From the NCBI GenBank assembly GCA_028909515.1, contig GCA_028909515.1_4811.1: a stretch of DNA of 64,000 nt; one strand, written 5' to 3'. The position numbers were made by a program, and so were the translations under genes. Below the pieces are notes generated by a model. It was given only the letters and a program-made list of their open reading frames with translations. It made no database searches and was not told where the DNA came from. Shown here piece by piece: positions 2,346 through 30,350 of this stretch; positions within the stretch are counted from its first letter, which is position 1, and every line of letters starts with the position of its first letter. The stretch is from a phage.

Positions 2346-2762
2346 TTACCCCTTATTTGGAGTCTCGCCGCTGAGGAATGGCGCGATTAATCGCATCGAT
2401 TCGCCGATGAATGCTGCAGCCATTTCGCCGCCAGCCTGTTCCCAGTAGCCTTCACGCTCGGCGTGGGTGTCTGGGTTTATACCGTTCTCCATGAGAACTG
2501 CTTCAAATACTTCTTTAAGGTTTTCCCAGTCACCAAGATGGTTGTCAATTAGTGCACCAGTGCTTAATGGGATTTCTTGCCCCACGTCAAGCTCGACTTT
2601 TGCAAAGCTCAACACTTCCATCGTATACTCTGAACGAAAAGCAGGGTCTTTCGACATTGCAAATTCTACGAATCGACGCTGAATATTCCAGCCTTCCATC
2701 GCAGTCATTTTGTTGATTTTAATTTCTACTGTACGACCAGTTTGTTTGTTGGTGATCTTCAT
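2346..2762 (-). CDS. hypothetical tail-module protein
   Basis: 138-aa ORF tiled between tube genes and tape measure; starts 2 nt after upstream stop. Confidence 0.45.
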   Translation of the reverse strand: MKITNKQTGRTVEIKINKMTAMEGWNIQRRFVEFAMSKDPAFRSEYTMEVLSFAKVELDVGQEIPLSTGALIDNHLGDWENLKEVFEAVLMENGINPDTHAEREGYWEQAGGEMAAAFIGESMRLIAPFLSGETPNKG

Positions 2763-2763
2763 T

Positions 2764-3324
2764 CTATATTCCTACTGTTGATTTTATTTTATTATATAAC
2801 GAACTCACAGTTGTAGTCAAACTGACTGGTTCTTTAATAGCAACACCATTTGATGATTCGTCTGCGGATTGTTTAGGGTCGAAGCTTCCTTGAATGCTAA
2901 ATGACGTTTGCTCGAAAGTTATTACTATTGAGACGCCATTCAAGTTTTCTTCTGACTGGGTTATTTCAACGTCAGACATCGACATTTTACTGGCAATGAT
3001 GCTTCGGGAAGTTATTGAAAATGTGACTTCGTCATCATCAAATGCATTTATGATATTTTCAATTGTAGACTGATCATTGCAAATTACGTTTAACGCCATA
3101 TGGGCTGGCATTACAACCTTTGCCGCCTGTAAATTGCTTACTGATGATGTGCTTGACACTTCGACGACCTGCATTGCTGTACCAGCAAGAGGGAATTGAG
3201 TTGTTTCTGCGGGGGATGTTATTTCTGCAGAAACAGGTGAAAGCCTTGTCCAGACAGGAAGACCTGTTGACTCATTCGTTATGGTCAAAGATTGACCAGA
3301 AAGCAGAATCGAAACGAAGTCCAT
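2764..3324 (-). CDS. hypothetical tail-module protein
   Basis: 186-aa ORF in co-directional tail gene array. Confidence 0.45.
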   Translation of the reverse strand: MDFVSILLSGQSLTITNESTGLPVWTRLSPVSAEITSPAETTQFPLAGTAMQVVEVSSTSSVSNLQAAKVVMPAHMALNVICNDQSTIENIINAFDDDEVTFSITSRSIIASKMSMSDVEITQSEENLNGVSIVITFEQTSFSIQGSFDPKQSADESSNGVAIKEPVSLTTTVSSLYNKIKSTVGI

Positions 3325-3857
3325 CAGAACATCCCCTTGATACCATTCATCACCTTTGTAGCAACGCCAGTGACGCTGGCAGAAGTTTCTTTTATGTATG
3401 CAATGCCGCGCTCTATTACTGTTGAGTCGCCTGCCTGCGCTGTTTGAATAGACACATCCTGCTGTGTTAATATCTCATGGAATACCAATTGTATGGGTTG
3501 CGACGTTATATTGTCAGCGTCCTGGCTGAAGTTGTTATTTTGCAGCACCATACGTTCGAATATTAAACCACGGGAATTAATTGTGTATATAGTCGACCTG
3601 TTTTGCAACATCTTAGCTATTGCATCTGATGCGCTTTTTGTTTGTGCTATCACGGTGACAGTCAGTATTCGCGGCATCTTTACTCTGCCATCGACAATAT
3701 AGCTGCCATCTTCCCTTTGGTTTTTGAATATCTTTGCTTGGAGTCTTATTTTGACGTTGACTATTGCCCATCCAAGCGTGGATACTTCTCCAAGGTTGAA
3801 GCTCTTTATCGTGAAGCTTCTGTTTGATAAACTATATGACAATAAATCGATAGCCAT
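3324..3857 (-). CDS. hypothetical tail-module protein
   Basis: 177-aa ORF abutting neighbours (1-nt overlaps). Confidence 0.45.
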   Translation of the reverse strand: MAIDLLSYSLSNRSFTIKSFNLGEVSTLGWAIVNVKIRLQAKIFKNQREDGSYIVDGRVKMPRILTVTVIAQTKSASDAIAKMLQNRSTIYTINSRGLIFERMVLQNNNFSQDADNITSQPIQLVFHEILTQQDVSIQTAQAGDSTVIERGIAYIKETSASVTGVATKVMNGIKGMF

Positions 3858-4354
3858 TAAATGGACCCCAATATGCTCTGCACCACGCCTTTTGCAATTT
3901 GAGACGTGCTCTGTGCGCCGCCGTAGCTGGCAAACACAAATGTGTATCGGTTTGTCTTGCGACGGCCTGATTGCTCTATGGAGTCACCAAGCGGACCGCT
4001 GATTATTGTTCCGTTCGAGAATGCCACCCTTCCACCGTCAGGATATGTGATAAGCATTGATGTCACATCCTGAATTGGCAACCACTTGAATCCACCTTTA
4101 CGGGCAGATAATAAAAGCTTAAGATTTATGTCATCTTCAGTGTTTGGAATGACCGCAATGGATACGCGAACGACGGCGGCTTTGTCGTATATGCAAATGC
4201 CGCCGTCGTAAGTAAGTTGATAGCCTACTGATTCAACTTCCTCAATAATTAGCGAATCCTGGTCATCAGACAAAGAACTGATATTCAGCCCAACAGGGAA
4301 AGATTGAAGAGCGACAATTCTAATGCTTGTGCCAAATCCACTAATATTGACCAT
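3857..4354 (-). CDS. tail tube-like protein (paralog of 5305..5772)
   Basis: N-terminus 'MVNISGFGTSIRIVA' parallels 'MINVSGFGASIRLVA' of 5305..5772; similar length. Confidence 0.55.
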   Translation of the reverse strand: MVNISGFGTSIRIVALQSFPVGLNISSLSDDQDSLIIEEVESVGYQLTYDGGICIYDKAAVVRVSIAVIPNTEDDINLKLLLSARKGGFKWLPIQDVTSMLITYPDGGRVAFSNGTIISGPLGDSIEQSGRRKTNRYTFVFASYGGAQSTSQIAKGVVQSILGSI

Positions 4355-4356
4355 GT

Positions 4357-4623
4357 TTACTCCGCAGATGCAGATTTAACTGCAGCAAGAATTTCATCCT
4401 TATAAGAAAGACCCTTGATGTCGATGCCATTTTCTTTGGCATAAGACTTCAATTCTGAAACACTCATGGAATCAAAATCGAGTTTTTGTTCAGTGGCCTT
4501 TTCTTCGACCTGCTCTTTGATTTCTGCAACAGGCTCGACTTTCTTGTTGAACATCTCTGATGCGTCTTCAAATTTTTCGCCAAATTTCATGACGCCATTT
4601 GCAAAATGAATTACTTGTGCCAT
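4357..4623 (-). CDS. hypothetical protein
   Basis: 88-aa acidic ORF tiled in tail module. Confidence 0.45.
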   Translation of the reverse strand: MAQVIHFANGVMKFGEKFEDASEMFNKKVEPVAEIKEQVEEKATEQKLDFDSMSVSELKSYAKENGIDIKGLSYKDEILAAVKSASAE

Positions 4624-4979
4624 TATTGATTACTCACCTTTATACGTTCGCCATAAATAGTCACCACTTCTGCAGTGAATCCAAGGATACCGTTTTGGAT
4701 GGTGACAGTCAATGAGTCGATTCCGGCAACGTCTGCTTTCTTCAGAATAGCATCTGCAATCGACTTTCGCGCACCGTCTTCGTCAACGGGCGACTTGAAA
4801 ACGGTCCCCAAATAATCGACACCGTTTTCTATATCGTACAAGTCTTCACCAAGTCGCATCTGGTGCGCTGCCTTGATTACTTGCACCATCGCTTTTTCTC
4901 CTGAAAGAATATTTAAGTTTCTTCCATCAGGTAGAAAAAGATCATTATTTTCGTTAACTTCAATTGTTAGAGTTGTCAA
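4623..4979 (-). CDS. hypothetical protein
   Basis: 118-aa ORF tiled in tail module. Confidence 0.45.
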   Translation of the reverse strand: MTTLTIEVNENNDLFLPDGRNLNILSGEKAMVQVIKAAHQMRLGEDLYDIENGVDYLGTVFKSPVDEDGARKSIADAILKKADVAGIDSLTVTIQNGILGFTAEVVTIYGERIKVSNQ

Positions 4980-5305
4980 ATTGCAAACTCCGCTTCAGCA
5001 GTGGCCTGGAATTCAGCCAACTCAGATTCTGACATGTAATATAGATTACAGCCGCCAGAGTTAAAACTTTCATAATCAGGTACGCTGTCGAAAATGAAAT
5101 TACCGTACCCAATCATAAGATACTTATAAGGCACCATTGGGATACCACCAAAACAGCGCACCCCTTGAATCAAAAGTTCACCGTTGCGGTATACGTCGGC
5201 GCACATATGCTCGATAGCGGCAAAAATGTGCAACTGCCAATATGCACCGTCAACGTTAAAGCTGATATTCTGGTTAGGTACGCTGTCAAGTGGTATTTGA
5301 TACAT
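4976..5305 (-). CDS. hypothetical protein
   Basis: 109-aa ORF, 4-nt overlap with downstream gene. Confidence 0.45.
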   Translation of the reverse strand: MYQIPLDSVPNQNISFNVDGAYWQLHIFAAIEHMCADVYRNGELLIQGVRCFGGIPMVPYKYLMIGYGNFIFDSVPDYESFNSGGCNLYYMSESELAEFQATAEAEFAI

Positions 5306-5772
5306 TATAAAATCTCTTGGTTGCTCACGCCAGTTTTGACTACGTTCTCAAACTTGAAGCGATATTGACGTGTTTTCACACGACCTTGAGACTGGATGCC
5401 AGGAATTACTGAACCAGTTGTCAAGGTGCCTTTATTCAGCGTGATAACCATTCCAGAAGGATAAGTCAGCACAAGTGTGATCACGTCTTTTGCGGAGTTC
5501 TTACGCTTGCCTACGCGGTTTGCAGCCGCGAGAACGTCCAAGTTGACATCACTTTCAGAAGTAGGGATGATGTTCACGCCTACTTCAAGCGGGTTTGCAC
5601 GGTTCCATACTACCAAGTCACCGTTAAGGCCCATTGCGGCCTCAGAGATTTGCAGGTCCGGCGCGTCAATCGGATCAGCATCATCTGCAAAATCAGAAAG
5701 AGTCACACCATTCGGAAAAGTGTTTGATGCTACCAAACGAATCGAAGCGCCAAAACCGGAAACGTTAATCAT
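5305..5772 (-). CDS. tail tube protein
   Basis: 155-aa ORF immediately downstream of the sheath gene; paralog of 3857..4354. Confidence 0.6.
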   Translation of the reverse strand: MINVSGFGASIRLVASNTFPNGVTLSDFADDADPIDAPDLQISEAAMGLNGDLVVWNRANPLEVGVNIIPTSESDVNLDVLAAANRVGKRKNSAKDVITLVLTYPSGMVITLNKGTLTTGSVIPGIQSQGRVKTRQYRFKFENVVKTGVSNQEIL

Positions 5773-13069: not shown

Positions 13070-13159
13070 CCACCCTCAAATAAGTATTGTGTATTATATC
13101 TAATGAAAAAAACTTAGGCAAACAATAATTATGGTTTGAATATGTATAACAACCGATAT

Positions 13160-13455
13160 AGCCGCGCCTTTATTAGTGTGATACGGATGATACGGATAAA
13201 ATGAGGCGTATTTTTATCCGTATCGGTGTATAAGCCGCGCTATCACTGGTGTGCTACGGATGATACGGATGATACGGATACTTTTCATATATAAGAGTTT
13301 ATAAAAAAATAAAATTAAATTAGATATATAATTTTAAATTAATTTATTTGAATTCCTATATAGTACGGCGGCAACGCGTATCATCCGTATCATCCGTAAG
13401 ATTCTTTTGAAAACAACAACTTACTTGATACGGATGATACGTCATTATACGTATA
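13160..13455. repeat. iteron-flanked AT-rich element, copy 1
   Basis: Direct and inverted copies of TACGGATGATACGGAT (13179-13198, 13216-13226, 13255-13280, inverted 13377-13400, 13427-13445) around an ~85-bp AT-rich core; homologous to 29030..29365. Confidence 0.7.
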
Positions 13456-13632
13456 AAACTTGCGGCAATCCTTTGCCGATGAATTCAGTGAATATTAAAT
13501 AGCACTCCTGCCACTAAAACGCCAATCAACATCGAGTCATAAACAGCCCATTTCCAAGAAAGCAAAGAGTTGCAATTAATATTTCGCACTTTAACATAAC
13601 GTGACTGAATAATCTTTTGCATAACTTCCTCT

Positions 13633-18607: not shown

Positions 18608-20068
18608 TTAAAGGTTAGAGAAGAAGCCGGATGCTGCAACGATTGGTTTCATCAATGCCATGATTGCTGCGTCCGCTTTGTTAGGTGATTTAACTCCACG
18701 CTTTGCCATGTCCTTTTTGGATTCAACTTTGAACTTGCCAAGAACAGACGTATCTTTGCGCGGCGCTGACATCTCAAAAAGAAACGTCTCAATCTCTTCA
18801 GTAGTCCAAGCTGGAATTCCAAGTTCTGGTATGCCATCTGTGTCAATTGAAATCAACTCATCAGTCGGATATACGGCCTGCCCAGTCGCATACTCGTATG
18901 TCTTTCTGAATCTCTCTGCAATCTCAGTCCACTTTTGCGCTTTTATGTTTGCGAAATGGTCTTTATTGAGTATTTCAACGTGTGGTAGTTCAAGAAAAAC
19001 GTCATCAGGATCATCAACAGACCCTTGCGCGTTGAACGCATTAAATTCGATTCTTGGAAATGATGGATTTTCATGTATCGCATACTCGTTTAGTTCATCA
19101 AATTTTGAACCAGCAAAAGCGCCGACACCGATGGCGTCATAAGTTATAGAAGCGCCAAATGTAAGCGCATCTTTCCAAACTCCGCTTGCCGATTTCAACA
19201 ATTCATCTTCCAGACCTTCCCATGTCTTGATGCCGCGCAATACGTTTCCTGTAACGAATGCAGTGGCGTTAAGGTCGTCGCCATCGTCCGCTACGTCAAA
19301 GCCTATACGGTTAGACCCTGACAAACTCCAACCCAGCGTAGGGTGTTTGTGGAGGTTAAGCGCGGCCTTAACGAATGCGCGGTTGATTACAGATTTATCG
19401 CCGCCAGTCTTCGGCACGCCGCCATAAACGTGCTCTGCCTTTTTCGGGTCACGCTCGTACATGCCTGCAATAACGTCCAGCATTGTTTGCGACAAGAATG
19501 GATTGTCTTGCCAGTTTATCTTTTTGACAATGGCATTCTTCGGCGGTCGCATGACAAAGTTTTGATAGACGAAATCGGCCTCTTCATCAGGGTTAAAGAT
19601 AATCCATATTTCGGACCCTTCTTTACGGATTGTCGGCTCAATAATGTCCCACTGTTCTTCAGTAAGCGCGTGCGCTTCTTCCAGCCAAAGAACATCAACG
19701 CCTTCTGTTGATTTGATTTCATCAACGTTACGTGCGATACCATAAAATAGAAATTCAGATTTAGTTCTTTTGTGTTCGATAGAGTTCTTTAATAAATTGA
19801 ACTCATCTTTAAAATCAGAAATCTCTATTTTGTCTTTTAATAGAGTATATACAGATTCAGAAATCTTGTTCTGGAATTGTCGAACGCAAAGGAATTTTAA
19901 TTTGAAGTTTGCCGCCAAATAAATAGCAAAACCAGCGGCATCGTGCGATTTGGAAGATGCACGACCGCCGTATATTACTTTGTATCGCGCTTTTGTCTTC
20001 CAGACTTCTTTTAAAGCAGGATTCAACTGGTACATGAATTTCCAATTATGTGTTAATATTTTATTCAT
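18608..20068 (-). CDS. terminase large subunit
   Basis: 486 aa; N-terminal ATPase region with Walker A-like 'YGGRASSKSHDAAGF' and Walker B-like 'DVLWLEEAHAL'; C-terminal nuclease-like region; precedes portal. Confidence 0.8.
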   Translation of the reverse strand: MNKILTHNWKFMYQLNPALKEVWKTKARYKVIYGGRASSKSHDAAGFAIYLAANFKLKFLCVRQFQNKISESVYTLLKDKIEISDFKDEFNLLKNSIEHKRTKSEFLFYGIARNVDEIKSTEGVDVLWLEEAHALTEEQWDIIEPTIRKEGSEIWIIFNPDEEADFVYQNFVMRPPKNAIVKKINWQDNPFLSQTMLDVIAGMYERDPKKAEHVYGGVPKTGGDKSVINRAFVKAALNLHKHPTLGWSLSGSNRIGFDVADDGDDLNATAFVTGNVLRGIKTWEGLEDELLKSASGVWKDALTFGASITYDAIGVGAFAGSKFDELNEYAIHENPSFPRIEFNAFNAQGSVDDPDDVFLELPHVEILNKDHFANIKAQKWTEIAERFRKTYEYATGQAVYPTDELISIDTDGIPELGIPAWTTEEIETFLFEMSAPRKDTSVLGKFKVESKKDMAKRGVKSPNKADAAIMALMKPIVAASGFFSNL

Positions 20069-24977: not shown

Positions 24978-25358
24978 ATGTCAAATAAAAATGATTCTAT
25001 GAGCCACACATATACTAAAGGCAGCGGCACCGCTTTTGGTTCAAGTATGAAAATTGACGCTCCATCTTGCTATTCTGATGGATTGGAAGTTGGCAACCGT
25101 GACTTGACATGGGTTTTACGTCGCCAATCCGATTTAGAAGAGAAGTTGGAAAATATTGAGCGTTCTCTTGAAAGTCTGCGCGACCAGCTTTTTGGTTGTT
25201 CTGGAGATGAGTCAAAACCTGTATCATATGCAGCCAATCGCGGTTTGATTGATAATATGCTTGCTATTACCGCTCGATCAATTGGTAAAACTGTGTCCAT
25301 TGAATCATTGATCAGCCAGATTGCGGATGGCTTTGGTGATGCCCATAAGAGTGAGTAG
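24978..25358 (+). CDS. hypothetical protein
   Basis: Start set at 'MSNKND' behind AAAGGTAATGAT; a hairpin terminator lies in the longer ORF-track N-terminus. Confidence 0.45.
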   Translation: MSNKNDSMSHTYTKGSGTAFGSSMKIDAPSCYSDGLEVGNRDLTWVLRRQSDLEEKLENIERSLESLRDQLFGCSGDESKPVSYAANRGLIDNMLAITARSIGKTVSIESLISQIADGFGDAHKSE

Positions 25359-26070
25359 TGGGTGTTGGTTATTTAACCGTGAATCGTGGGTCGTGAATCT
25401 TGGGTCGCTTAGTGCGGCCCTTTCTTTTGCCTGCCGTGCAGGAGTGTACTGCAAATTTACTGTGGGTACAAAATAGTACGGTACTGTCTAGGATTTTTTC
25501 TTTGAAAAGTTAGTGGACCAAATGTGTCGTATTTTGATTAGTGTACTACAAATTTCATCAAGTACCAAAACGCACCAAAAGACCCATGCCATAAAAACCA
25601 CACGAACGCAATAATCAATCGCCGTTACAGTTTCCAGCGTTACAATTCGAAAGCGAATGATTCGAAGCATAATAATATGAAGCATAATGATTCGAAAGCG
25701 AATGATTGCGTGTAGGATAATATCGGTGGGGATTATTCTAGATGCATGTAATTTCGCATGCGTACTATTTTCGGACGAAGGGTCGGCATATTCCTCGTTT
25801 TAGTTCGGAACGAAGGGAAAGTTTTGCGCCTTTATAAAACAACGACTTACGCGACCCTCCCTAACGGTCCGATATAGGTGTCTATATAAAACAACGACTT
25901 ACGCGATGTTCTCCATTTAACGTAATACCCGTTATGCGAACTAAGGCGCATCTCGGCGAAGATTATGCGACGACGAAGGGAAGGATAAAGGAGTTTTCGC
26001 GGAGAAGCGCATCGGGATAGGGACGAAGAAAAGCCGCGACTAAGCGCGGCCTATTAGTAACGGAAGGGTA
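25359..26070. repeat. repeat-dense non-coding region between convergent genes
   Basis: Two copies of ATAAAACAACGACTTACGCGA; GTGAATC(G/T)TGGGTCG twice; GTGTACT(G/A)CAAATTT twice; permuted repeats of CGAAAGCGAATGATT and GAAGCATAAT; about five ACGAAGGG-type copies. Confidence 0.6.
26015..26040 (-). terminator. rho-independent terminator of 26071..26361
   Basis: Minus-strand hairpin GCCGCG...CGCGGC followed by TTTTCTTC. Confidence 0.55.
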
Positions 26071-26361
26071 TTATAAGGAGACGATTTTAAAATAAGTTAC
26101 TTCGCCGCCAAGTTGCGGGACCGCGATATATTCGCCGCCGATTTCGGTAATCGTATAGACGAAGCCGTTGATGGTTACGCGGTAGGATACTACGTCCTCG
26201 TCGCGATACTTGTAAAGGTCGAGGAAGTTGATCGGCTCATAAATAGACTCGATAGTCGCGTCTACGTTAGAGAGATAAACGCTCTCTAAGGTTTCGCCAA
26301 ATACGTTAGAGTTTTCGGAAGTCTCGACGCGAGCGGAACGGATAGCGGATAAAGTAATCAT
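26071..26361 (-). CDS. small acidic protein, paralog family (copy A)
   Basis: 96 aa, Glu/Asp-rich; own promoter, AGGAG RBS and terminator; similar to 26995..27279 ('SIR.A.VE...NVD.TIE...NG..Y...EIG'). Confidence 0.6.
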   Translation of the reverse strand: MITLSAIRSARVETSENSNVFGETLESVYLSNVDATIESIYEPINFLDLYKYRDEDVVSYRVTINGFVYTITEIGGEYIAVPQLGGEVTYFKIVSL

Positions 26362-26427
26362 AATATTCTCCTAGTTAGTCGGGAGGGTAGCGACCTATTC
26401 GCTACCTCATCCCCTCTCGATATAAAC

Positions 26428-26456
26428 ATTATAGTCTTAGTGTACGAATAAGTAAA
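26428..26456 (-). promoter_or_regulatory. sigma70-like promoter for acidic paralog A
   Basis: Minus-strand TTTACT-N17-TATAAT with internal TACACT. Confidence 0.55.
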
Positions 26457-26466
26457 GCACTTTTCG

Positions 26467-26769
26467 TTATTCTGCGATAAAATATTTATAAGCTTTATCG
26501 CCTTCTATATCGAGATACTCGACGATAATTAACGCTTCGCCGCGCGGCGTAACGGTTTCGATGAGGGTTACGGTTTCGTCGTCGGCCCGAATGAAGCGGA
26601 TGGCGCTACGTTCGGCGTACTTAATCTCGTCGAAGGAAAGGCCGACGAAGGCGACCGCGCGGACTTTAATTCCGCTCCACTCTAGTTCCGCGTTAACGGC
26701 TTTAAGAAGAGAAGCGACGGTTAAGCGGTCTTCGTCGTAAGTAAGAAGAGAAGAAATTAAAGTAGCCAT
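26467..26769 (-). CDS. small acidic protein, paralog family (copy B)
   Basis: Start at 'MATLISS' behind GGGAG RBS; acidic; same promoter architecture as copies A and C. Confidence 0.55.
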   Translation of the reverse strand: MATLISSLLTYDEDRLTVASLLKAVNAELEWSGIKVRAVAFVGLSFDEIKYAERSAIRFIRADDETVTLIETVTPRGEALIIVEYLDIEGDKAYKYFIAE

Positions 26770-26825
26770 AATAAAACTCCCGATGCTAGTAGAAGGAAGG
26801 GCCATCACCCGTCTCGATATAAACA

Positions 26826-26854
26826 AGTATACGCGAGTGTACGAAGAAGTAAAG
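26826..26854 (-). promoter_or_regulatory. sigma70-like promoter for acidic paralog B
   Basis: Minus-strand TTTACT-N16-TATACT with internal TACACT. Confidence 0.55.
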
Positions 26855-26898
26855 AAAAAAAGATAAAATAATTTATCTCATTTTTATCGAAAAAGTGC

Positions 26899-26926
26899 TT
26901 TACTTTTTTCTACACTATATTATAAT
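26899..26926 (+). promoter_or_regulatory. sigma70-like promoter for acidic paralog C (divergent from B)
   Basis: GTGCTTTACTT-N-TACACT-N-TATAAT; -35 TTTACT, 16-bp spacer. Confidence 0.55.
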
Positions 26927-26994
26927 GTACTCATATCGGGACGGGATGAGTTAACGAATAGGTCGTTAACGCCTCTCCCAACTAGGAGTTTAAA

Positions 26995-27279
26995 ATGGCT
27001 ATTCTTAACGTTTCTTCTATTCGCAACGCTATCGTCGAGAACTACGGCGTAAAACAAATTTTATCCGAAGTCTACGCCGCGAACGTAGACCAAACTATCG
27101 AGGCGGGTGGGGTAACGGTCGCCGAGGCTTTTAAACTTTACGCGGCGCTACCGGAATCGGACCGCGAAGCCTTCGAAGTAAACGTTAACGGATACTTCTT
27201 CGAAGCGGTCGAAATCGGTAACATCTTACTCGTTATGGGCGAAGAAGAATTTGAGACCTTCTCCCTCGTCGAAGCGTAA
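26995..27279 (+). CDS. small acidic protein, paralog family (copy C)
   Basis: 94 aa, about 14 Glu versus 4 basic residues; AGGAG RBS; promoter TTTACT-N16-TATAAT upstream. Confidence 0.6.
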   Translation: MAILNVSSIRNAIVENYGVKQILSEVYAANVDQTIEAGGVTVAEAFKLYAALPESDREAFEVNVNGYFFEAVEIGNILLVMGEEEFETFSLVEA

Positions 27280-27359
27280 GAGAGGATTTTTAGAGCGTCG
27301 TGCGCGGCGCTTTAATAAAATTCTTTCGCGCCTAGCGCCCTAACAAATAGGAGTTTATT

Positions 27360-27986
27360 ATGGTTAGCTTAAATCGTTTCTCGACTAGCGGCGACGTTAT
27401 CGCAACTAAGACCGCCGACCTCGTTGCATTTTATAATGCAAATTCCGGTTCGAAGCCGATTAAGAAATTTGCGGACCGCCGGACCGCCGAGACTCGCGTA
27501 ATCGCGTTAATCGAGTCCTTAAACGCGCTCGATGAGCCGTCCAACGAATCGCCCATTCCCGACGCGAAGCCGCGCGAGGAAGTGTCCAGCGATGTAAAAA
27601 CGCATAAGGCGCGCGCGGTCGTTAAAAAGGCCGAGCCGACCCAGGAAGAACTCGACGCGATGAGCGATGAAGAGTATGAAGCCTTCGTTAAGAGCGGCTT
27701 AAACGATAGTGCGAATTGCGTAGTGCAAAATGGAACTCCTTCCCATCGCCGTTCGAATAGCGAAGGTATTGCAAAAAGTTGGGATAATAAGGAAGTGGCG
27801 CAAAAGCGTCTTACTCGTAACGGTGTTATGGTCGAGGGTGTAGGCGAGTTCAAATCGGTCCGCGTAGCGTTCGCCGCGCTGGGCTTACCGGATAGCAAGC
27901 ATATTCGCTTCCGCATGAAGCTTAAAGAAGCTGGACGCTTAAACTTCGAGTTCGGCAACAAGTCCTACACCTTCCAGATTATCTAA
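27360..27986 (+). CDS. hypothetical protein
   Basis: 208 aa; AGGAG RBS; CpG-rich, CTG-poor codon usage like the adjacent paralogs; hairpin terminator follows. Confidence 0.55.
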   Translation: MVSLNRFSTSGDVIATKTADLVAFYNANSGSKPIKKFADRRTAETRVIALIESLNALDEPSNESPIPDAKPREEVSSDVKTHKARAVVKKAEPTQEELDAMSDEEYEAFVKSGLNDSANCVVQNGTPSHRRSNSEGIAKSWDNKEVAQKRLTRNGVMVEGVGEFKSVRVAFAALGLPDSKHIRFRMKLKEAGRLNFEFGNKSYTFQII

Positions 27987-27992
27987 TCGAAT

Positions 27993-28014
27993 GGCGGCCC
28001 TTCGGGGTCGCTTT
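27993..28014 (+). terminator. rho-independent terminator after 27360..27986
   Basis: GCGGCCC-ttcg-GGGTCGC (one G-U pair) followed by TTTT. Confidence 0.5.
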
Positions 28015-28036
28015 TCATAGTGCAAATTGGTGGATT

Positions 28037-28300
28037 ATGAATACTCTTATTCTCATCGCTACGTTGTCCATCGGAAGTGGTCGCACCTTATCCCTTTATG
28101 ACCATAGTGCAAATTGCGCTTACCCTACGCGCGTTGCGGCGATAGTTAATAGTGCAAATAAGATGCTATTCGAGACTTGCTGGCGGGTCGATAACGAGAA
28201 AGGTCGGGTAGTCTTAGGTTATAGTGCAAATCTGCTGGTGGAGTCGTTCGATTGGACGGCTGAAGGTCGTAAATTGTTACGTAAAGTGACTAAAAGATGA
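28037..28300 (+). CDS. hypothetical protein with in-frame 'SAN' repeats (doubtful)
   Basis: 87-aa ORF carrying three in-frame copies of ATAGTGCAAAT, with further copies flanking it; may be a DNA-level repeat array, not a gene. Confidence 0.3.
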   Translation: MNTLILIATLSIGSGRTLSLYDHSANCAYPTRVAAIVNSANKMLFETCWRVDNEKGRVVLGYSANLLVESFDWTAEGRKLLRKVTKR

Positions 28301-28345
28301 CTTATAATAATACACTTTCTAACGCGTTTATGGTTGCAACCTTCC

Positions 28346-28402
28346 CCGTCGTATTACCGACGGCCCTAGAAGTGGAGAAAATGTGTTCTAGGGCCGTTTT
28401 AT
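28346..28402 (+). terminator. tandem-hairpin terminator
   Basis: CCGTCG-tattac-CGACGG, then CGGCCCTAGAA-N14-TTCTAGGGCCG followed by TTTTAT. Confidence 0.45.
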
Positions 28403-28414
28403 AGTGCAAATTGG

Positions 28415-28888
28415 CTAGTGGCGGGAGAATTGCTCGCCTTCTTTGGCCGCCTCTCCAAAATCCTTGTAGAAATCGTCCATAGAACGGCCCATTTTACTAT
28501 TGCCGTTTTCATCAATCATCGTGATGCCGTAGATGATATTCAGTTCACGAATAGCATTAAGCTTGGCTGACGCCGCGACTTCTGGATCACGCACAAGCTT
28601 GACCAAATTGTGAATTGCACCTTTTACGCTCCACAAATCCTTGAGTGGCATCTCTTCCATACGCTTTTTGAAGCGCATTTTGTAGTATGGGTTGCGTTGC
28701 GCGCAAAGGATTCGCTGGCCAGTGTAGTTATCCGTTGCAACTTCCATTCCAAATACTAGTGCAAAAGCTGCGCGCATGTCATGGCCCTGAATAACAAGGT
28801 CAATGAACTCATCGAATAAAGCCTGATTGTGCTCTGCAAATCGCGGGTCTTCAAAGTCTTCAGGCATCGCTACATAATCTTGACTCAT
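28415..28888 (-). CDS. hypothetical protein
   Basis: Start set at 'MSQDYVAM'; three ATAGTGCAAAT-type copies lie at or just upstream of the start. Confidence 0.5.
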   Translation of the reverse strand: MSQDYVAMPEDFEDPRFAEHNQALFDEFIDLVIQGHDMRAAFALVFGMEVATDNYTGQRILCAQRNPYYKMRFKKRMEEMPLKDLWSVKGAIHNLVKLVRDPEVAASAKLNAIRELNIIYGITMIDENGNSKMGRSMDDFYKDFGEAAKEGEQFSRH

Positions 28889-29029
28889 AGTGCAAAATCC
28901 CATAGTGCAAATTAATAGTGTGAATTATACAATGGATGGACATTATATTCAAGTGCAGATTGATGTTCATTATGGCTATAAACGTACACAAATCATAGTG
29001 CTGATAGAGTTGCGGACCGTGGTGCGTGG

Positions 29030-29365
29030 TGTACTGTTTGATACGTATAAAAGAAATCCATCCCTTTCGCCGCTTGCTATGCAAATCAATGACTTAGCCG
29101 CTGCTGGCTGGTTGAAGCGTATCATGACGTATCATCCGTATTGCCGCAAGTCTTTGTTTTTACTTATATCTTACGGATGATACGTATAAATATAAGTTTA
29201 GTATAAGTATGAGGATGTAGAAAAAAATTAATTTAAATTAATTCAAAATGGAGTTAATTAATTTTCTGGAATTCTATATATATTATGTTTGCACCCGTAT
29301 CATCCGTATCAGCGTATTTTTCCTTATAAATCAATAGCCCAATGATACGTCATGATACGTATGAA
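29030..29365. repeat. iteron-flanked AT-rich element, copy 2
   Basis: TACGGATGATACG-type iterons at about 29117-29140 (inverted), 29171-29187, 29294-29314 (inverted), 29342-29362 around an AT-rich core sharing 'AAAAAAATTAATTTAAATTAATT' and 'GAATTCTATATA' with copy 1. Confidence 0.7.
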
Positions 29366-29855
29366 TGACTGCCTTCGCGGCAAAACAATCCCAGTGTATA
29401 CCAACAATCCCAGGCGCGGCGCACCACAGGGCCACGGTACAATATCCTGTGAAGAGGTGACTCTCATTTCCTTATACGTATCATCATGGACTACGATTAC
29501 TAAAACTAAAAACATTATTAAAATTCTGAGCACCAACACCACAAGCACCAAGACCCACGGCTAACGCACCGTTAGCCAATACTCCACGATAAAATATCCT
29601 ATAAATTACAAACAATCCGCGTATATAATAGCACCATAATTATTTATTTTTGATTCAATATTTACACTAAAATAAGCCATTGTATTTTCCTCACTGTTCT
29701 ATCCGTATTATTTAGTGGATTAAACTGTCATAAATACTTATAAACGTTGATTGCCACAATATGCAATAATCTTGATAAATTATTATAATATTTTCGCTCT
29801 CTTAAATTACAGCCTTGAATCGTAAATAACCACAAAAAGCCTCACATTACACAGG

Positions 29856-29880
29856 CAAACAAAAAGGGCCAATCGGCCCT
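29856..29880 (-). terminator. rho-independent terminator ending the minus-strand early array
   Basis: Minus-strand GGGCC-gatt-GGCCC followed by TTTTTG. Confidence 0.6.
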
Positions 29881-29897
29881 CTTAACATTAATCATAA

Positions 29898-30350
29898 TTA
29901 AAATATAAAATTCTTCACTCCAAGCCTTTTGAATTCTTTCCTTAACATTATATTAAACTTCTTCAATTTAGTTTTATTCATCCTTAGCGGATTGTAGGTG
30001 AACACCTTTTCTATTACTTCCTTACGCATCTTTGAGCGCATATTAGTTAAGTAATAATTCTTGAACATATTAATAAGGTGATTGGCTTCCAGCTTAAGCT
30101 CAATTACTTCTTCCGATTCATCAAGCTCAAGCAGTCCTTTTTGCGTAAGAATATCTCTTAATATATCCTGACATTTCTTGCAATCACCTTTGCCTAAAAG
30201 CGAGTCGATGTAATCGCCGCTGACGCGCTCATCACCGAAATAAGTTGCGCGACCACAAAGGCTTTGCACTTCTCCTTCATCAAAGTAGTGCGCACGATGA
30301 GCCCACTTCGGTATGGCCCAACCAGCGGCGATAAGCTTTTTACCCATCAC
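29898..30350 (-). CDS. hypothetical protein
   Basis: 150-aa basic ORF, last gene of the minus-strand early array; terminator downstream. Confidence 0.5.
   Translation of the reverse strand: MMGKKLIAAGWAIPKWAHRAHYFDEGEVQSLCGRATYFGDERVSGDYIDSLLGKGDCKKCQDILRDILTQKGLLELDESEEVIELKLEANHLINMFKNYYLTNMRSKMRKEVIEKVFTYNPLRMNKTKLKKFNIMLRKEFKRLGVKNFIF

What the first reader, a model, noticed from the sequence alone, without database searches (positions are those of the whole stretch)
28016..28925. Array of at least seven ATAGTGCAAAT motifs over 900 bp, partly in-frame inside a doubtful ORF
The 11-mer recurs at irregular spacing in one orientation. Three copies are in-frame within ORF 28037..28300 (giving H/N/Y-S-A-N repeats), others sit in terminator-proximal DNA and just upstream of the start of the minus-strand gene 28415..28888. 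The motif includes a TATAGT -10-like hexamer in some copies. Either a clustered binding site for a regulator or alternative polymerase, or a repeat-containing small protein gene.
Basis: seen in the sequence. Interest (0 to 1): 0.55.

Follow-up and report, generated by a model that had tools for sequence, protein, structure and literature searches.

The report
Polar DNA-box array beside phage terminase gene
A short DNA word (ATAGTGCAAAT) is repeated about a dozen times, always in the same direction, in the 1.3 kb around the small-terminase gene near one end of a Wifcevirus E. coli phage genome; distant relatives keep the same array, so it is a real but uncharacterised DNA signal, most likely a protein-binding array linked to genome-end recognition or packaging.

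Summary
The window has six exact ATAGTGCAAAT copies and about six degenerate ones. All lie on the + strand at 27706-29005. The 9-mer core TAGTGCAAA occurs nowhere else in the 64 kb.

The window is a Wifcevirus, an E. coli myophage distantly related to PB1. The minus-strand gene 28415..28888 is the small terminase, TerS (PDB 7uxe, E=7e-34). The array lies inside the ~3.7-kb direct terminal repeat (window 25578..~29249), 250-1550 bp from the physical left end.

The "doubtful" ORF 28037..28300 is a real gene. The boxes overlie three genes, both coding strands, several reading frames and intergenic DNA. They are therefore a DNA element, not a protein repeat.

The same box (terS-sense A-T-Y-T-GCACTA-Y) forms arrays of 7-14 copies in six other lineages whose TerS is only 42-65% identical. 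Orientation and position are the same in all. More distant relatives lack it.

The boxes are not promoters. They have no partner hexamer, no conserved flanks, and none occur elsewhere in the genome.

Best guess (about 0.4): a binding-site array for a phage protein, most likely TerS, that marks the packaging end. Three findings keep rivals open: no TerS/box covariation, no helical phasing, and the box staying invariant while TerS diverges. The rivals are another regulator and a Chi-like polar signal.

The parts
27706..27716 (+). Box copy ATAGTGCGAAT, inside the 208-aa gene. It is exact ATAGTGCAAAT in 6 of 7 sister genomes and lost in ECML-117.
27720..27730 (+). Degenerate box GTAGTGCAAAA, inside the 208-aa gene in a different frame
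28017..28027 (+). Exact box, intergenic. It sits directly after a terminator-like hairpin and 10 nt before the ATG of the 87-aa gene. Invariant in 8 genomes.
28104..28114 (+). Exact box, in frame in the 87-aa gene (H-S-A-N)
28149..28159 (+). Exact box, in frame in the 87-aa gene (N-S-A-N; NSAN is also conserved at protein level across lineages)
28221..28231 (+). Exact box, in frame in the 87-aa gene (Y-S-A-N), followed 2 nt later by a Chi site
28401..28411 (+). Exact box, intergenic, directly after the bidirectional terminator-like hairpin 28360-28397 and followed by the one-mismatch Chi variant GCTAGTGG (28414-28421)
28756..28766 (+). Degenerate box CTAGTGCAAAA, antisense inside terS. Invariant in 8 genomes.
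28887..28897 (+). Box overlapping the terS start codon (terS-sense GCACTATG). It is exact in 6 of 7 sister genomes; the window and Bas99 carry one extra A.
28902..28912 (+). Exact box in the terS 5' leader
28915..28925 (+). Degenerate box ATAGTGTGAAT. In terS-sense its ACACTA core starts 2 nt after the TATAAT -10 of a terS promoter-like site, so it covers the likely transcription start.
28995..29005 (+). Weak box ATAGTGCTGAT, the copy nearest the genome end. It is variable among sister genomes and its membership is uncertain.
28415..28888 (-). terS, small terminase subunit (157 aa)
   Evidence: PDB 7uxe (E217 TerS) E=7.3e-34; Foldseek top hit 7uxe_A, probability 1.0; phrog_4783; annotated as terminase small subunit in Mansfield
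28037..28300 (+). Real gene for an 87-aa protein with a hydrophobic, signal-like N-terminus and two conserved Cys. It hosts three boxes.
   Evidence: substitutions 4/2/20 by codon position; homologues in L124, L125, L126, L127 and Kyle
27360..27986 (+). 208-aa gene (phrog_4730), function unknown, conserved also in box-less Pbunavirus. It hosts two boxes.
28924..28969 (-). Two overlapping sigma-70-like promoter matches for terS (-10 TATAAT at 28929..28924 and at 28947..28942)
   Evidence: consensus match only
28234..28241 (+). Single Chi site GCTGGTGG, oriented to be active for RecBCD entering from the nearby genome end
   Evidence: the orientation rule comes from established knowledge of RecBCD and Chi
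25578..29249 (.). Direct terminal repeat (~3.67 kb) that contains the whole array. The left physical end is at about 29249, 360 bp upstream of the terS ATG. The inner boundary is at 25578.
   Evidence: Mansfield PhageTerm annotation; WFH record end maps to window 25578; terS at nt 360/361 of end-opened records; ~3.7-kb repeats in WFC/WFH
29020..29485 (.). Separate repeat family (9-bp units GATGATACG / CGTATCATC in inverted blocks) flanking the AT-rich core that contains the physical end. It includes a perfect 18-nt inverted repeat 29118-29135 / 29342-29359.

Best explanation
The boxes are a DNA-level cis element: a strictly co-oriented array of short protein-recognition sites in the first 1.5 kb of the direct terminal repeat.

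The most likely reader is the phage's own small terminase, whose gene lies in the middle of the array. TerS is a ring oligomer with outward-facing helix-turn-helix domains. On this model it loads on the boxes, beginning with the tight triplet spaced 13-15 bp at the terS start. That marks this copy of an otherwise duplicated AT-rich module as the packaging start and sets the direction of packaging. Because the triplet covers the terS transcription start, leader and ATG, binding would also limit terS expression.

Shown: the array is real, unique, polar, conserved, and sits next to terS and the genome end.
Inferred: that a protein binds it, that the protein is TerS, and that the outcome is end selection and autoregulation.
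For: 1. Uniqueness and polarity. All copies are on one strand and none lie elsewhere in the 64 kb.
2. Constraint within the genus. The nine core copies have 3 of 99 variable columns against 13.3% background (p=5e-4). Non-coding copies have 1 of 53 variable columns against 59 of 463 in non-coding flanks (p=0.013).
3. Deep conservation. Arrays of A-T-Y-T-GCACTA-Y occur in L124 (10 copies), L125 (9), L126 (7), L127 (11), Kyle (14) and PA1 (13). Within the array zone no GCACTA lies on the opposite strand. The arrays run from just upstream of, or within, terS to 400-900 bp beyond it. TerS in these lineages is only 42-65% identical to the window's.
4. The gene inside the array is a bona fide TerS.
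5. The array lies 250-1550 bp from the physical end, inside the direct terminal repeat.
6. The ~300-bp AT-rich module that contains the end has a 73%-identical second copy at 13150-13500 with no boxes near it. The boxes are therefore what distinguishes the end-proximal copy.
7. In Wifcevirus, L124, L125 and L127 a full or degenerate box starts 2 nt after the TATAAT of the terS promoter. In Wifcevirus and L124 the terS ATG lies inside a box.
8. The two box-bearing genera with mapped ends (Wifcevirus, Kylevirus) have fixed repeats of ~3.6-3.7 kb; the ends of L124-L127 and PA1 are not mapped. The box-less Pbunavirus is reported as headful and circularly permuted.
9. From established knowledge: pac and cosB sites of P22, SPP1, Sf6 and lambda lie in or beside terS. 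Excess TerS harms E217, so tight control of terS is plausible.
Against: 1. The box core is invariant while TerS diverges to about 42% identity, and the predicted recognition helices vary.
2. The apparent clade signature [Q/K/R]64-R65 is not exclusive. ERN is common in box-less relatives. P0010 (QRN) shows no box in its 1.4-kb contig.
3. Spacings run from 10 to 390 bp with no helical phasing (Rayleigh p about 0.7). The array spans about 1.3 kb, longer than known pac or cosB sites.
4. E217 TerS showed no appreciable DNA binding in vitro. E217 belongs to the box-less clade.
5. Kyle and PA1 have no box at the terS promoter, so autoregulation cannot be the conserved function.
6. Lineage-specific inverted repeats lie closer to the cut site and could be the true terminase site.
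7. No binding or packaging data exist.
Confidence: 0.4

Rival explanations
1. The boxes are operators, or a decoy or sink array, for a different sequence-specific DNA-binding protein. This could be an unidentified phage early or late regulator, or a conserved enterobacterial host protein. It would coat the terS-proximal kilobase to time terS and the convergent early operon, or to organise the DNA end.
For: An invariant box across lineages whose TerS has diverged suggests a more conserved reader than TerS. Boxes overlap the terS transcription start in four lineages. No TerS/box covariation was found. All known hosts of box-bearing phages are Enterobacterales.
Against: No candidate protein was found. 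The neighbouring 208-aa protein is equally conserved in box-less Pbunavirus. The 87-aa protein has a hydrophobic, signal-like N-terminus and looks secreted. Apart from the terS promoter, boxes show no fixed relation to promoters. The box does not match host-factor sites I could recall: it fits 7 of 9 positions of the DnaA box, but its information pattern differs. A scan of IMG/VR found true dispersed arrays only in Wifcevirus, so this is not a signal shared by enterobacterial phages in general. Myosmarvirus also infects Enterobacterales and lacks the boxes.
Confidence: 0.2
2. The boxes are a polar signal read on one strand by an enzyme that enters or tracks from the nearby DNA end. Candidates are a Chi-like regulatory sequence for a helicase-nuclease, a checkpoint for the packaging motor, or recognition sites for a strand-specific nickase. 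Many copies at arbitrary spacing would raise the chance of recognition.
For: The array shows strict single-strand polarity, irregular spacing without phasing, and indifference to coding context. Its position begins a few hundred bp from a free end. In Kyle, PA1, L125 and L127 the boxes are interleaved with 5-9 genuine Chi sites (GCTGGTGG). These share the boxes' polarity and are in the active orientation for RecBCD entering at this end.
Against: The box is unrelated to Chi in sequence. The two arrays are separable: Wifcevirus has one Chi, L124 has none, and Myosmarvirus has Chi arrays without boxes. No enzyme with this specificity is known in enterobacteria or encoded recognisably here; the window has a RecD/PIF1-like helicase, SNF2, VapE and RepB-primase. 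There is no mirrored array at the other end of the repeat.
Confidence: 0.15
3. The boxes are template recognition sites for the phage primase or initiator, such as the RepB-type primase. They would direct priming on one strand near the end of the linear genome, or act as iterons of an origin.
For: The window encodes a RepB-primase-domain protein and a VapE-like helicase. The boxes are strand-specific and lie next to an AT-rich region.
Against: Spacing is irregular and most copies lie inside genes, unlike iterons. The AT-rich module has its own 9-bp inverted iteron-like repeats, which are a better origin candidate and occur twice in the genome, whereas the boxes do not. Known primase recognition sites are about 3 nt long (established knowledge).
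Confidence: 0.08
4. The boxes are promoters for host RNA polymerase or a phage-directed polymerase.
For: xATAGT resembles a -10 hexamer. Copy 28017 lies 10 nt before the ATG of the 87-aa gene.
Against: No -35 or other partner element exists, and flanks carry almost no information. The position corresponding to the key -11 A is G in most Kyle copies. Six copies would fire antisense to terS and off the genome end. No copy stands before any other gene. The promoter scan places none of its matches on a box as a -10. The Pfam/PHROGs scans of 20 selected window ORFs showed no RNA polymerase, though those scans covered only part of the window's ORFs.
Confidence: 0.03

Closest known systems
Lambda cosB (R1-R3 sites bound by gpNu1) beside cosN and the Nu1 gene
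   Same: Repeated short sites for the small terminase lie between or next to the cut site and the terS gene, and they fix where and in which direction packaging starts. The order here is cut site, then about 330 bp, then boxes and terS. This parallels cosN-cosB-Nu1 (lambda layout from established knowledge; layout here).
   Different: cosB is about 120 bp with three sites plus an IHF site. It produces cohesive ends, not a 3.7-kb direct repeat. Here there are about 12 sites over 1.3 kb, most of them inside genes, and binding by TerS is untested.
pac sites of SPP1 (pacL/pacC/pacR), P22 and Sf6 (inside the terS gene), and P1 (clustered hexamers)
   Same: Recognition elements lie inside and around terS, with several short repeats on either side of the gene start (established knowledge; summarised in PMC9611059).
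   Different: Those phages package by the headful mechanism from a pac site and give permuted genomes. The elements span about 20-270 bp. Here the ends are fixed and the array is much longer.
Chi sites (GCTGGTGG) and Chi-rich phage genomes
   Same: Short, strictly polar, irregularly spaced, indifferent to coding context and clustered near a DNA end. Real Chi arrays share the region and polarity in sister lineages. Chi abundance in phages is already reported (cited in PMC12407980).
   Different: The sequence is unrelated, no reader enzyme is known, and the boxes occur without Chi and Chi without the boxes.
Short-repeat arrays next to the T7 terminal repeat (SRL/SRR)
   Same: These are arrays of a short repeated word lying just inside the terminal repeat of a phage with fixed direct terminal repeats. 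Their function has never been settled. This comparison rests on my own recollection of the T7 sequence literature and was not checked here.
   Different: The T7 units are about 7 bp and closely packed in non-coding DNA next to a 160-bp repeat. Here the units are 10-11 bp and dispersed through genes inside a 3.7-kb repeat.

Membership tests
Small terminase (TerS), for the gene 28415..28888 | Sequence and fold homology to a structurally solved TerS | tested here: met
   phmmer against PDB gives 7uxe (E217 small terminase), E=7.3e-34 over residues 3-147. The AlphaFold model (pLDDT 73.6) has 7uxe_A as Foldseek top hit, E=1.4e-5, probability 1.0, followed by the PaP3 and NV1 TerS structures.
Terminase recognition site (pac / cosB type) | Lies in or next to the terS gene and near the packaging cut | tested here: met
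   The array spans terS and lies 250-1550 bp from the mapped end in Wifcevirus. It has the same placement relative to terS in six other lineages and the same placement relative to the record start in Kyle.
Terminase recognition site (pac / cosB type) | Specific binding by the cognate TerS | not testable with these tools
   This needs EMSA, footprinting or ChIP. The only related experimental datum is that E217 TerS, from the box-less clade, showed no appreciable DNA binding in vitro.
Terminase recognition site (pac / cosB type) | The cis site covaries with the TerS DNA-binding domain across lineages | tested here: inconclusive
   The box is invariant while TerS drops to about 42% identity. [Q/K/R]64-R65 is typical of box-bearing TerS, but ERN is common elsewhere and QRN occurs in a contig without boxes.
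Terminase recognition site (pac / cosB type) | Required in cis for packaging | not testable with these tools
   This needs plasmid packaging or transduction assays, or phage mutants.
Sigma-70 (or other) promoter | Two conserved elements at fixed spacing, placed upstream of genes in the sense direction | tested here: not met
   Flanks carry no information. The promoter scan does not use the boxes as a -10. Orientation is antisense or outward for half the copies. None stand before other genes.
Chi recombination hotspot | Sequence GCTGGTGG in enterobacteria, read by RecBCD from the 3' side | tested here: not met
   The box sequence is unrelated. Genuine Chi is a separate, separable element in the same region. 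Polarity relative to the end is the same.
Replication-origin iterons | Regularly spaced repeats next to an AT-rich unwinding element, usually non-coding or within the initiator gene | tested here: not met
   Spacings are 10-390 bp with no phasing. Copies are spread through three unrelated genes. A different 9-bp inverted repeat family flanks the AT-rich core.
DnaA box | TTWTNCACA | tested here: not met
   By inspection, ATTTGCACT fits 7 of 9 positions. However, the invariant positions of the box (G, and TA after CAC) are not those of a DnaA box, and the Kyle variant TTCGCACTA fits worse (PWM; DnaA consensus from established knowledge).
Protein-coding repeat | Copies confined to one ORF and one frame, conserved at protein level only | tested here: not met
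   Copies lie in three genes, on sense and antisense strands, in two frames and in four intergenic spots. The same holds in other lineages.
Known RNA family | Match to an Rfam covariance model | tested here: not met
   No Rfam hit at E<=1 in 25300-30000.

The most novel reading that the evidence does not exclude
The boxes are a previously unknown polar "end signal" read on one strand by a machine that tracks in from the genome end. On this reading it is a second signal, working like Chi but different in sequence, that this clade of enterobacterial myophages carries next to, or instead of, genuine Chi arrays in the first kilobase of its terminal repeat.
Probability: 0.15. Interest if true: 0.8.

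Novelty: new variant of a known kind. Interest (0 to 1): 0.55.

Why it matters
How small terminases recognise viral DNA is still unsettled; the 2022 review read here calls the mechanism "unclear and controversial". For phages with long direct terminal repeats, I know of no defined recognition site.

This clade offers a clean test case. It has a sharply defined 10-11-bp box and a natural array. Its TerS is 42% identical over the Foldseek alignment to one with a solved decamer structure (E217). It also has an internal control: a second copy of the end module that lacks boxes. Wifcevirus isolates that grow on engineered E. coli K-12 now exist in the BASEL collection.

If TerS binds the boxes, the wrapping and threading models of TerS action can be tested directly, and it could show how one of two near-identical modules is chosen as the packaging end.

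If TerS does not bind, then an invariant, polar, end-proximal signal with an unknown reader, interleaved with Chi in sister phages, would be the more surprising result.

Practically, anyone rebooting or engineering these phages should treat the boxes as cis-essential candidates. This includes the copies hidden in coding sequence.

Tried and rejected
- Promoter reading. A PWM of flanks across three lineages shows no second element, and the sigma-70 scan does not use the boxes. Rejected.
- Protein repeat. Rejected on frame, strand and gene distribution.
- Box-bearing gap without an ORF in L125. I first thought the boxes lay in an ORF-less gap. The ORF listing showed an uncalled 86-aa homologue there, so I dropped that argument.
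- TerS signature residues. Alignment A2 suggested [Q/K/R]-R65 as specific to the box-bearing clade. The library-wide HMMER search and the contexts of P0007-P0010 showed that ERN is widespread and QRN is not sufficient. I downgraded this to inconclusive.
- Helical phasing. 68 spacings from 7 lineages show none.
The 208-aa protein is equally conserved in box-less Pbunavirus. The 87-aa protein has a hydrophobic, signal-like N-terminus. Pfam, NCBIfam and PDB gave nothing for either.
- Analogous arrays in unrelated phages. A scan of IMG/VR for three spaced TTGCACTA gave 106 loci. All but the Wifcevirus contigs were tandem repeats, regular ~66-bp arrays (possibly CRISPR) or coding repeats.
- The search for related loci with the TerS alignment failed, and with Kyle TerS it returned only Kyle.
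- Rfam: no hit.
- Literature search for the box string found only primers.
- The E217 TerS paper (PMC10026623) is not held.
- Host-factor motifs (DnaA, IHF, CytR, marbox, sigma-54, the EcoKI half-site) were compared from memory only. None fits the box's information pattern.
- Box-like words near the inner repeat boundary (GTACTGCAAATTT at 25446; a similar word at 25541) are too few to separate from chance.
Full report
**What is there**

ATAGTGCAAAT occurs exactly six times: at 28017, 28104, 28149, 28221, 28401 and 28902. One-mismatch copies lie at 27706 and 28887. More degenerate copies lie at 27720, 28756, 28915 and 28995. All are on the + strand.

With up to one mismatch there are 9 hits against 2.06 +/- 1.42 in dinucleotide shuffles, and no shuffle reached 9. 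The 9-mer core TAGTGCAAA occurs nine times on the + strand within 27721-28903, never on the - strand, and nowhere else in the 64 kb.

**Genomic context**

The window is a Wifcevirus. It is 97% identical to Escherichia phage ManiWeber (Bas99), and there are 29 related records.

The minus-strand gene 28415..28888 is the small terminase:
- It matches the solved E217 TerS (PDB 7uxe) at E=7.3e-34.
- An AlphaFold model finds 7uxe as its best structural match.
- It is annotated as TerS in phage Mansfield.

[quoted passage not shown] WFC and WFH carry repeats of about 3.7 kb. Records opened at the physical end place terS at nucleotide 360/361. The right end of the WFH record maps to window 25578. The terminal repeat is therefore window 25578..~29249, and the array lies inside it, 250-1550 bp from the left physical end.

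TerL is at 18608..20068.

**A DNA element, not a protein repeat**

ORF 28037..28300 is a real gene. Among eight Wifcevirus genomes, substitutions fall 4/2/20 on codon positions 1/2/3 with no indels. Its product has a hydrophobic, signal-like N-terminus and two Cys, and it has homologues in the related lineages.

Box copies sit in three contexts:
- in this gene (three copies, in frame) and in the 208-aa gene (two copies, in two frames);
- antisense inside terS;
- in four intergenic positions.

The repeated unit is therefore selected as DNA.

**Conservation within the genus**

The nine core copies show 3 variable columns of 99 against 13.3% for the region (binomial p=5e-4). Non-coding copies show 1 of 53 variable columns against 59 of 463 for non-coding flanks (p=0.013). 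Third-codon positions inside boxes are not significantly protected. Copies 27706 and 28887 are exact in six of the seven sister genomes.

**Conservation across lineages (the strongest evidence)**

With terS read in the sense direction, the box is A-T-Y-T-GCACTA-Y. Arrays of it occur in:
- Pantoea phage Kyle (14 copies) and Pantoea phage PA1 (13 copies);
- four metagenomic contigs: L124 (10), L125 (9), L126 (7) and L127 (11).

TerS in these lineages is only 42-65% identical to the window's. Every array has a single orientation. Each starts just upstream of terS or within it and ends 400-900 bp beyond it. Flanking positions carry almost no information.

The box is absent around terS in Pbunavirus LMA2, Xanthomonas XcP1, Serratia Hera, Erwinia TropicalSun and Burkholderia Maja. 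It is also absent in the next-closest metagenomic TerS lineages, L128-L132.

A scan of IMG/VR for three spaced TTGCACTA words returned 106 loci. Only the Wifcevirus contigs were dispersed short-word arrays; the rest were tandem repeats, regular ~66-bp arrays (possibly CRISPR) or coding repeats. The box is therefore specific to one clade of enterobacterial PB1-like phages and is not a signal common to enterophages. I found no mention of it in the searchable literature.

**Why it is not a promoter**

- No partner hexamer or conserved flank exists.
- The base that would be the critical -11 A is G in most Kyle copies.
- Half of the window's copies would transcribe antisense to terS and off the end of the genome.
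- No copy precedes any other gene.
- The Pfam/PHROGs scans of 20 selected window ORFs showed no RNA polymerase, though those scans covered only part of the window's ORFs.
- Rfam finds nothing.

One regular relation to a promoter does exist. In Wifcevirus, L124, L125 and L127 a full or degenerate box begins 2 nt after the TATAAT of the terS promoter-like site. In Wifcevirus and L124 the terS ATG lies inside a box, GCACTATG. Kyle and PA1 lack this arrangement.

**Most likely mechanism**

I favour a binding-site array for a phage protein acting at the packaging end, with TerS as the most likely reader (confidence about 0.4). The arguments are these:
- pac and cosB sites of P22, SPP1, Sf6 and lambda lie in or beside terS (established knowledge).
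- A ring of identical subunits predicts direct, co-oriented repeats.
- The triplet at the terS start is spaced 13-15 bp. By my own rough estimate, that is about the distance between neighbouring subunits on DNA wrapped round a decamer.
- The AT-rich module containing the physical end has a 73%-identical twin at window 13150-13500 that has no boxes. The boxes are thus the only feature found here that distinguishes the copy lying at the genome end.
- The two box-bearing genera with mapped ends (Wifcevirus, Kylevirus) have fixed terminal repeats of ~3.6-3.7 kb. Box-less Pbunavirus is reported as headful and permuted. The ends of L124-L127 and PA1 are not mapped.
- Excess TerS is harmful in E217, so autoregulation through the start-proximal boxes is plausible.

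**What weakens this**

- The box is invariant while TerS diverges, and the predicted recognition helices (38-46 and 56-65) vary.
- The apparent signature [Q/K/R]64-R65 is not exclusive to the box-bearing clade.
- Spacings of 10-390 bp show no helical phasing (Rayleigh p about 0.7).
- E217 TerS did not bind DNA in vitro.
- Lineage-specific inverted repeats lie nearer the cut. They are GATACG in Wifcevirus and L124, ACGGATA in L125 and L127, GGTTAT in Kyle, AACCGTT in PA1 and CCGGTAATT in LMA2. However, the Wifcevirus family also occurs at the second, uncut module.

**Rivals**

- A polar signal read by an enzyme tracking in from the end (0.15).
- Primase or origin sites (0.08).
- Promoters (0.03).

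The polar-signal idea draws on a side observation. Genuine Chi sites form arrays in the same region and with the same polarity, which is the active orientation for RecBCD entering at this end:
- Kyle 9 in the first 2 kb of its terminal repeat, PA1 7, L125 six to seven, L127 5;
- TropicalSun 5, Hera 4.

The two arrays are separable, however. Wifcevirus has one Chi (28234) plus the one-mismatch variant GCTAGTGG (28414). L124 has no Chi. Myosmarvirus has Chi arrays but no boxes.

**Verdict**

This is a real, unique, polar and deeply conserved cis element next to the small-terminase gene, near the end of a direct terminal repeat. The element works most like a pac or cosB-type recognition array, but membership of that family is unproven because binding and covariation are untested or inconclusive. 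It is moderately interesting, because it makes TerS-DNA recognition in a phage with fixed terminal repeats directly testable.

Noticed in passing
window 13150-13500 and 29020-29380: A ~300-bp module is present twice, at 73% identity. Blocks of 9-bp units (GATGATACG / CGTATCATC) in inverted orientation flank an AT-rich core (TATATAG..AATTC..AAATTAATTTAA..TTTTTTT). The mapped left genome end (~29249) lies inside the core of the second copy. The first copy sits in a 560-bp gap inside the structural gene cluster. It could be an origin, a late-promoter control region or a terminase cut module.
   Followed up: partly
L003 (Kyle) 255-1972; L013 (PA1) 3861-5433; L125 323-1824; L127 411-1836; L014 (TropicalSun) 3987-4492; L006 (Hera) 2737-3833; window 28234 and 28414: Chi sites (GCTGGTGG) are clustered, 4-9 copies all of one polarity, in the terS-proximal 1-2 kb of several enterobacterial PB1-like phages. 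They are oriented to be active for RecBCD entering from the nearby genome end. The window has only one Chi plus the one-mismatch variant GCTAGTGG. This suggests that this end is exposed to RecBCD, perhaps because it enters the cell first.
   Followed up: partly
Regions upstream of terS in L124, L125, L126, L127, L013, L015, L004 and L130: Each lineage has its own short repeat family in inverted blocks around the AT-rich end region: GATACG, ACGGATA, ATACGGAA, GGTTAT, AACCGTT, CCGGTAATT and TATCCGAT. The family changes with lineage while the GCACTA box stays constant.
   Followed up: partly
It is present in all box-bearing lineages checked except PA1 (not examined) and is absent from LMA2. Function unknown.
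   Followed up: partly
window 26071..26361 (-) and 26995..27279 (+): Two paralogous small acidic proteins (96 and 94 aa) are encoded divergently inside the terminal repeat, with 65-nt and 27-nt inverted repeats spanning their upstream regions. They have no family match and may be early host-takeover or anti-defence proteins.
   Followed up: no
window 25636-25723 and 25830-25906: Just inside the inner boundary of the terminal repeat (25578) there are four 15-bp tandem units (..GAAAGCGAATGATTC..) and two copies of a 25-nt repeat (CTTTATAAAACAACGACTTACGCGA).
   Followed up: no
window 25444-25460 and 25541-25557: Two copies of GTGTACT(G/A)CAAATTT lie just outside the inner repeat boundary, on the same strand as the boxes. 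They share TGCAAAT(T) with the box, but there are too few to distinguish from chance.
   Followed up: no
L125, L126, L127, and the contig of P0006: Metagenomic contigs of this clade begin 350-520 bp upstream of terS. This is about where the physical end lies in Wifcevirus and Kyle and is consistent with assemblies breaking at a terminal-repeat boundary.
   Followed up: no
L001 (Mansfield) 1366-1401, corresponding to window ~25370-25400: Mansfield has six tandem copies of the 7-bp unit GTGGGTC, and the window has fewer. This is a variable-number tandem repeat just outside the terminal repeat.
   Followed up: no
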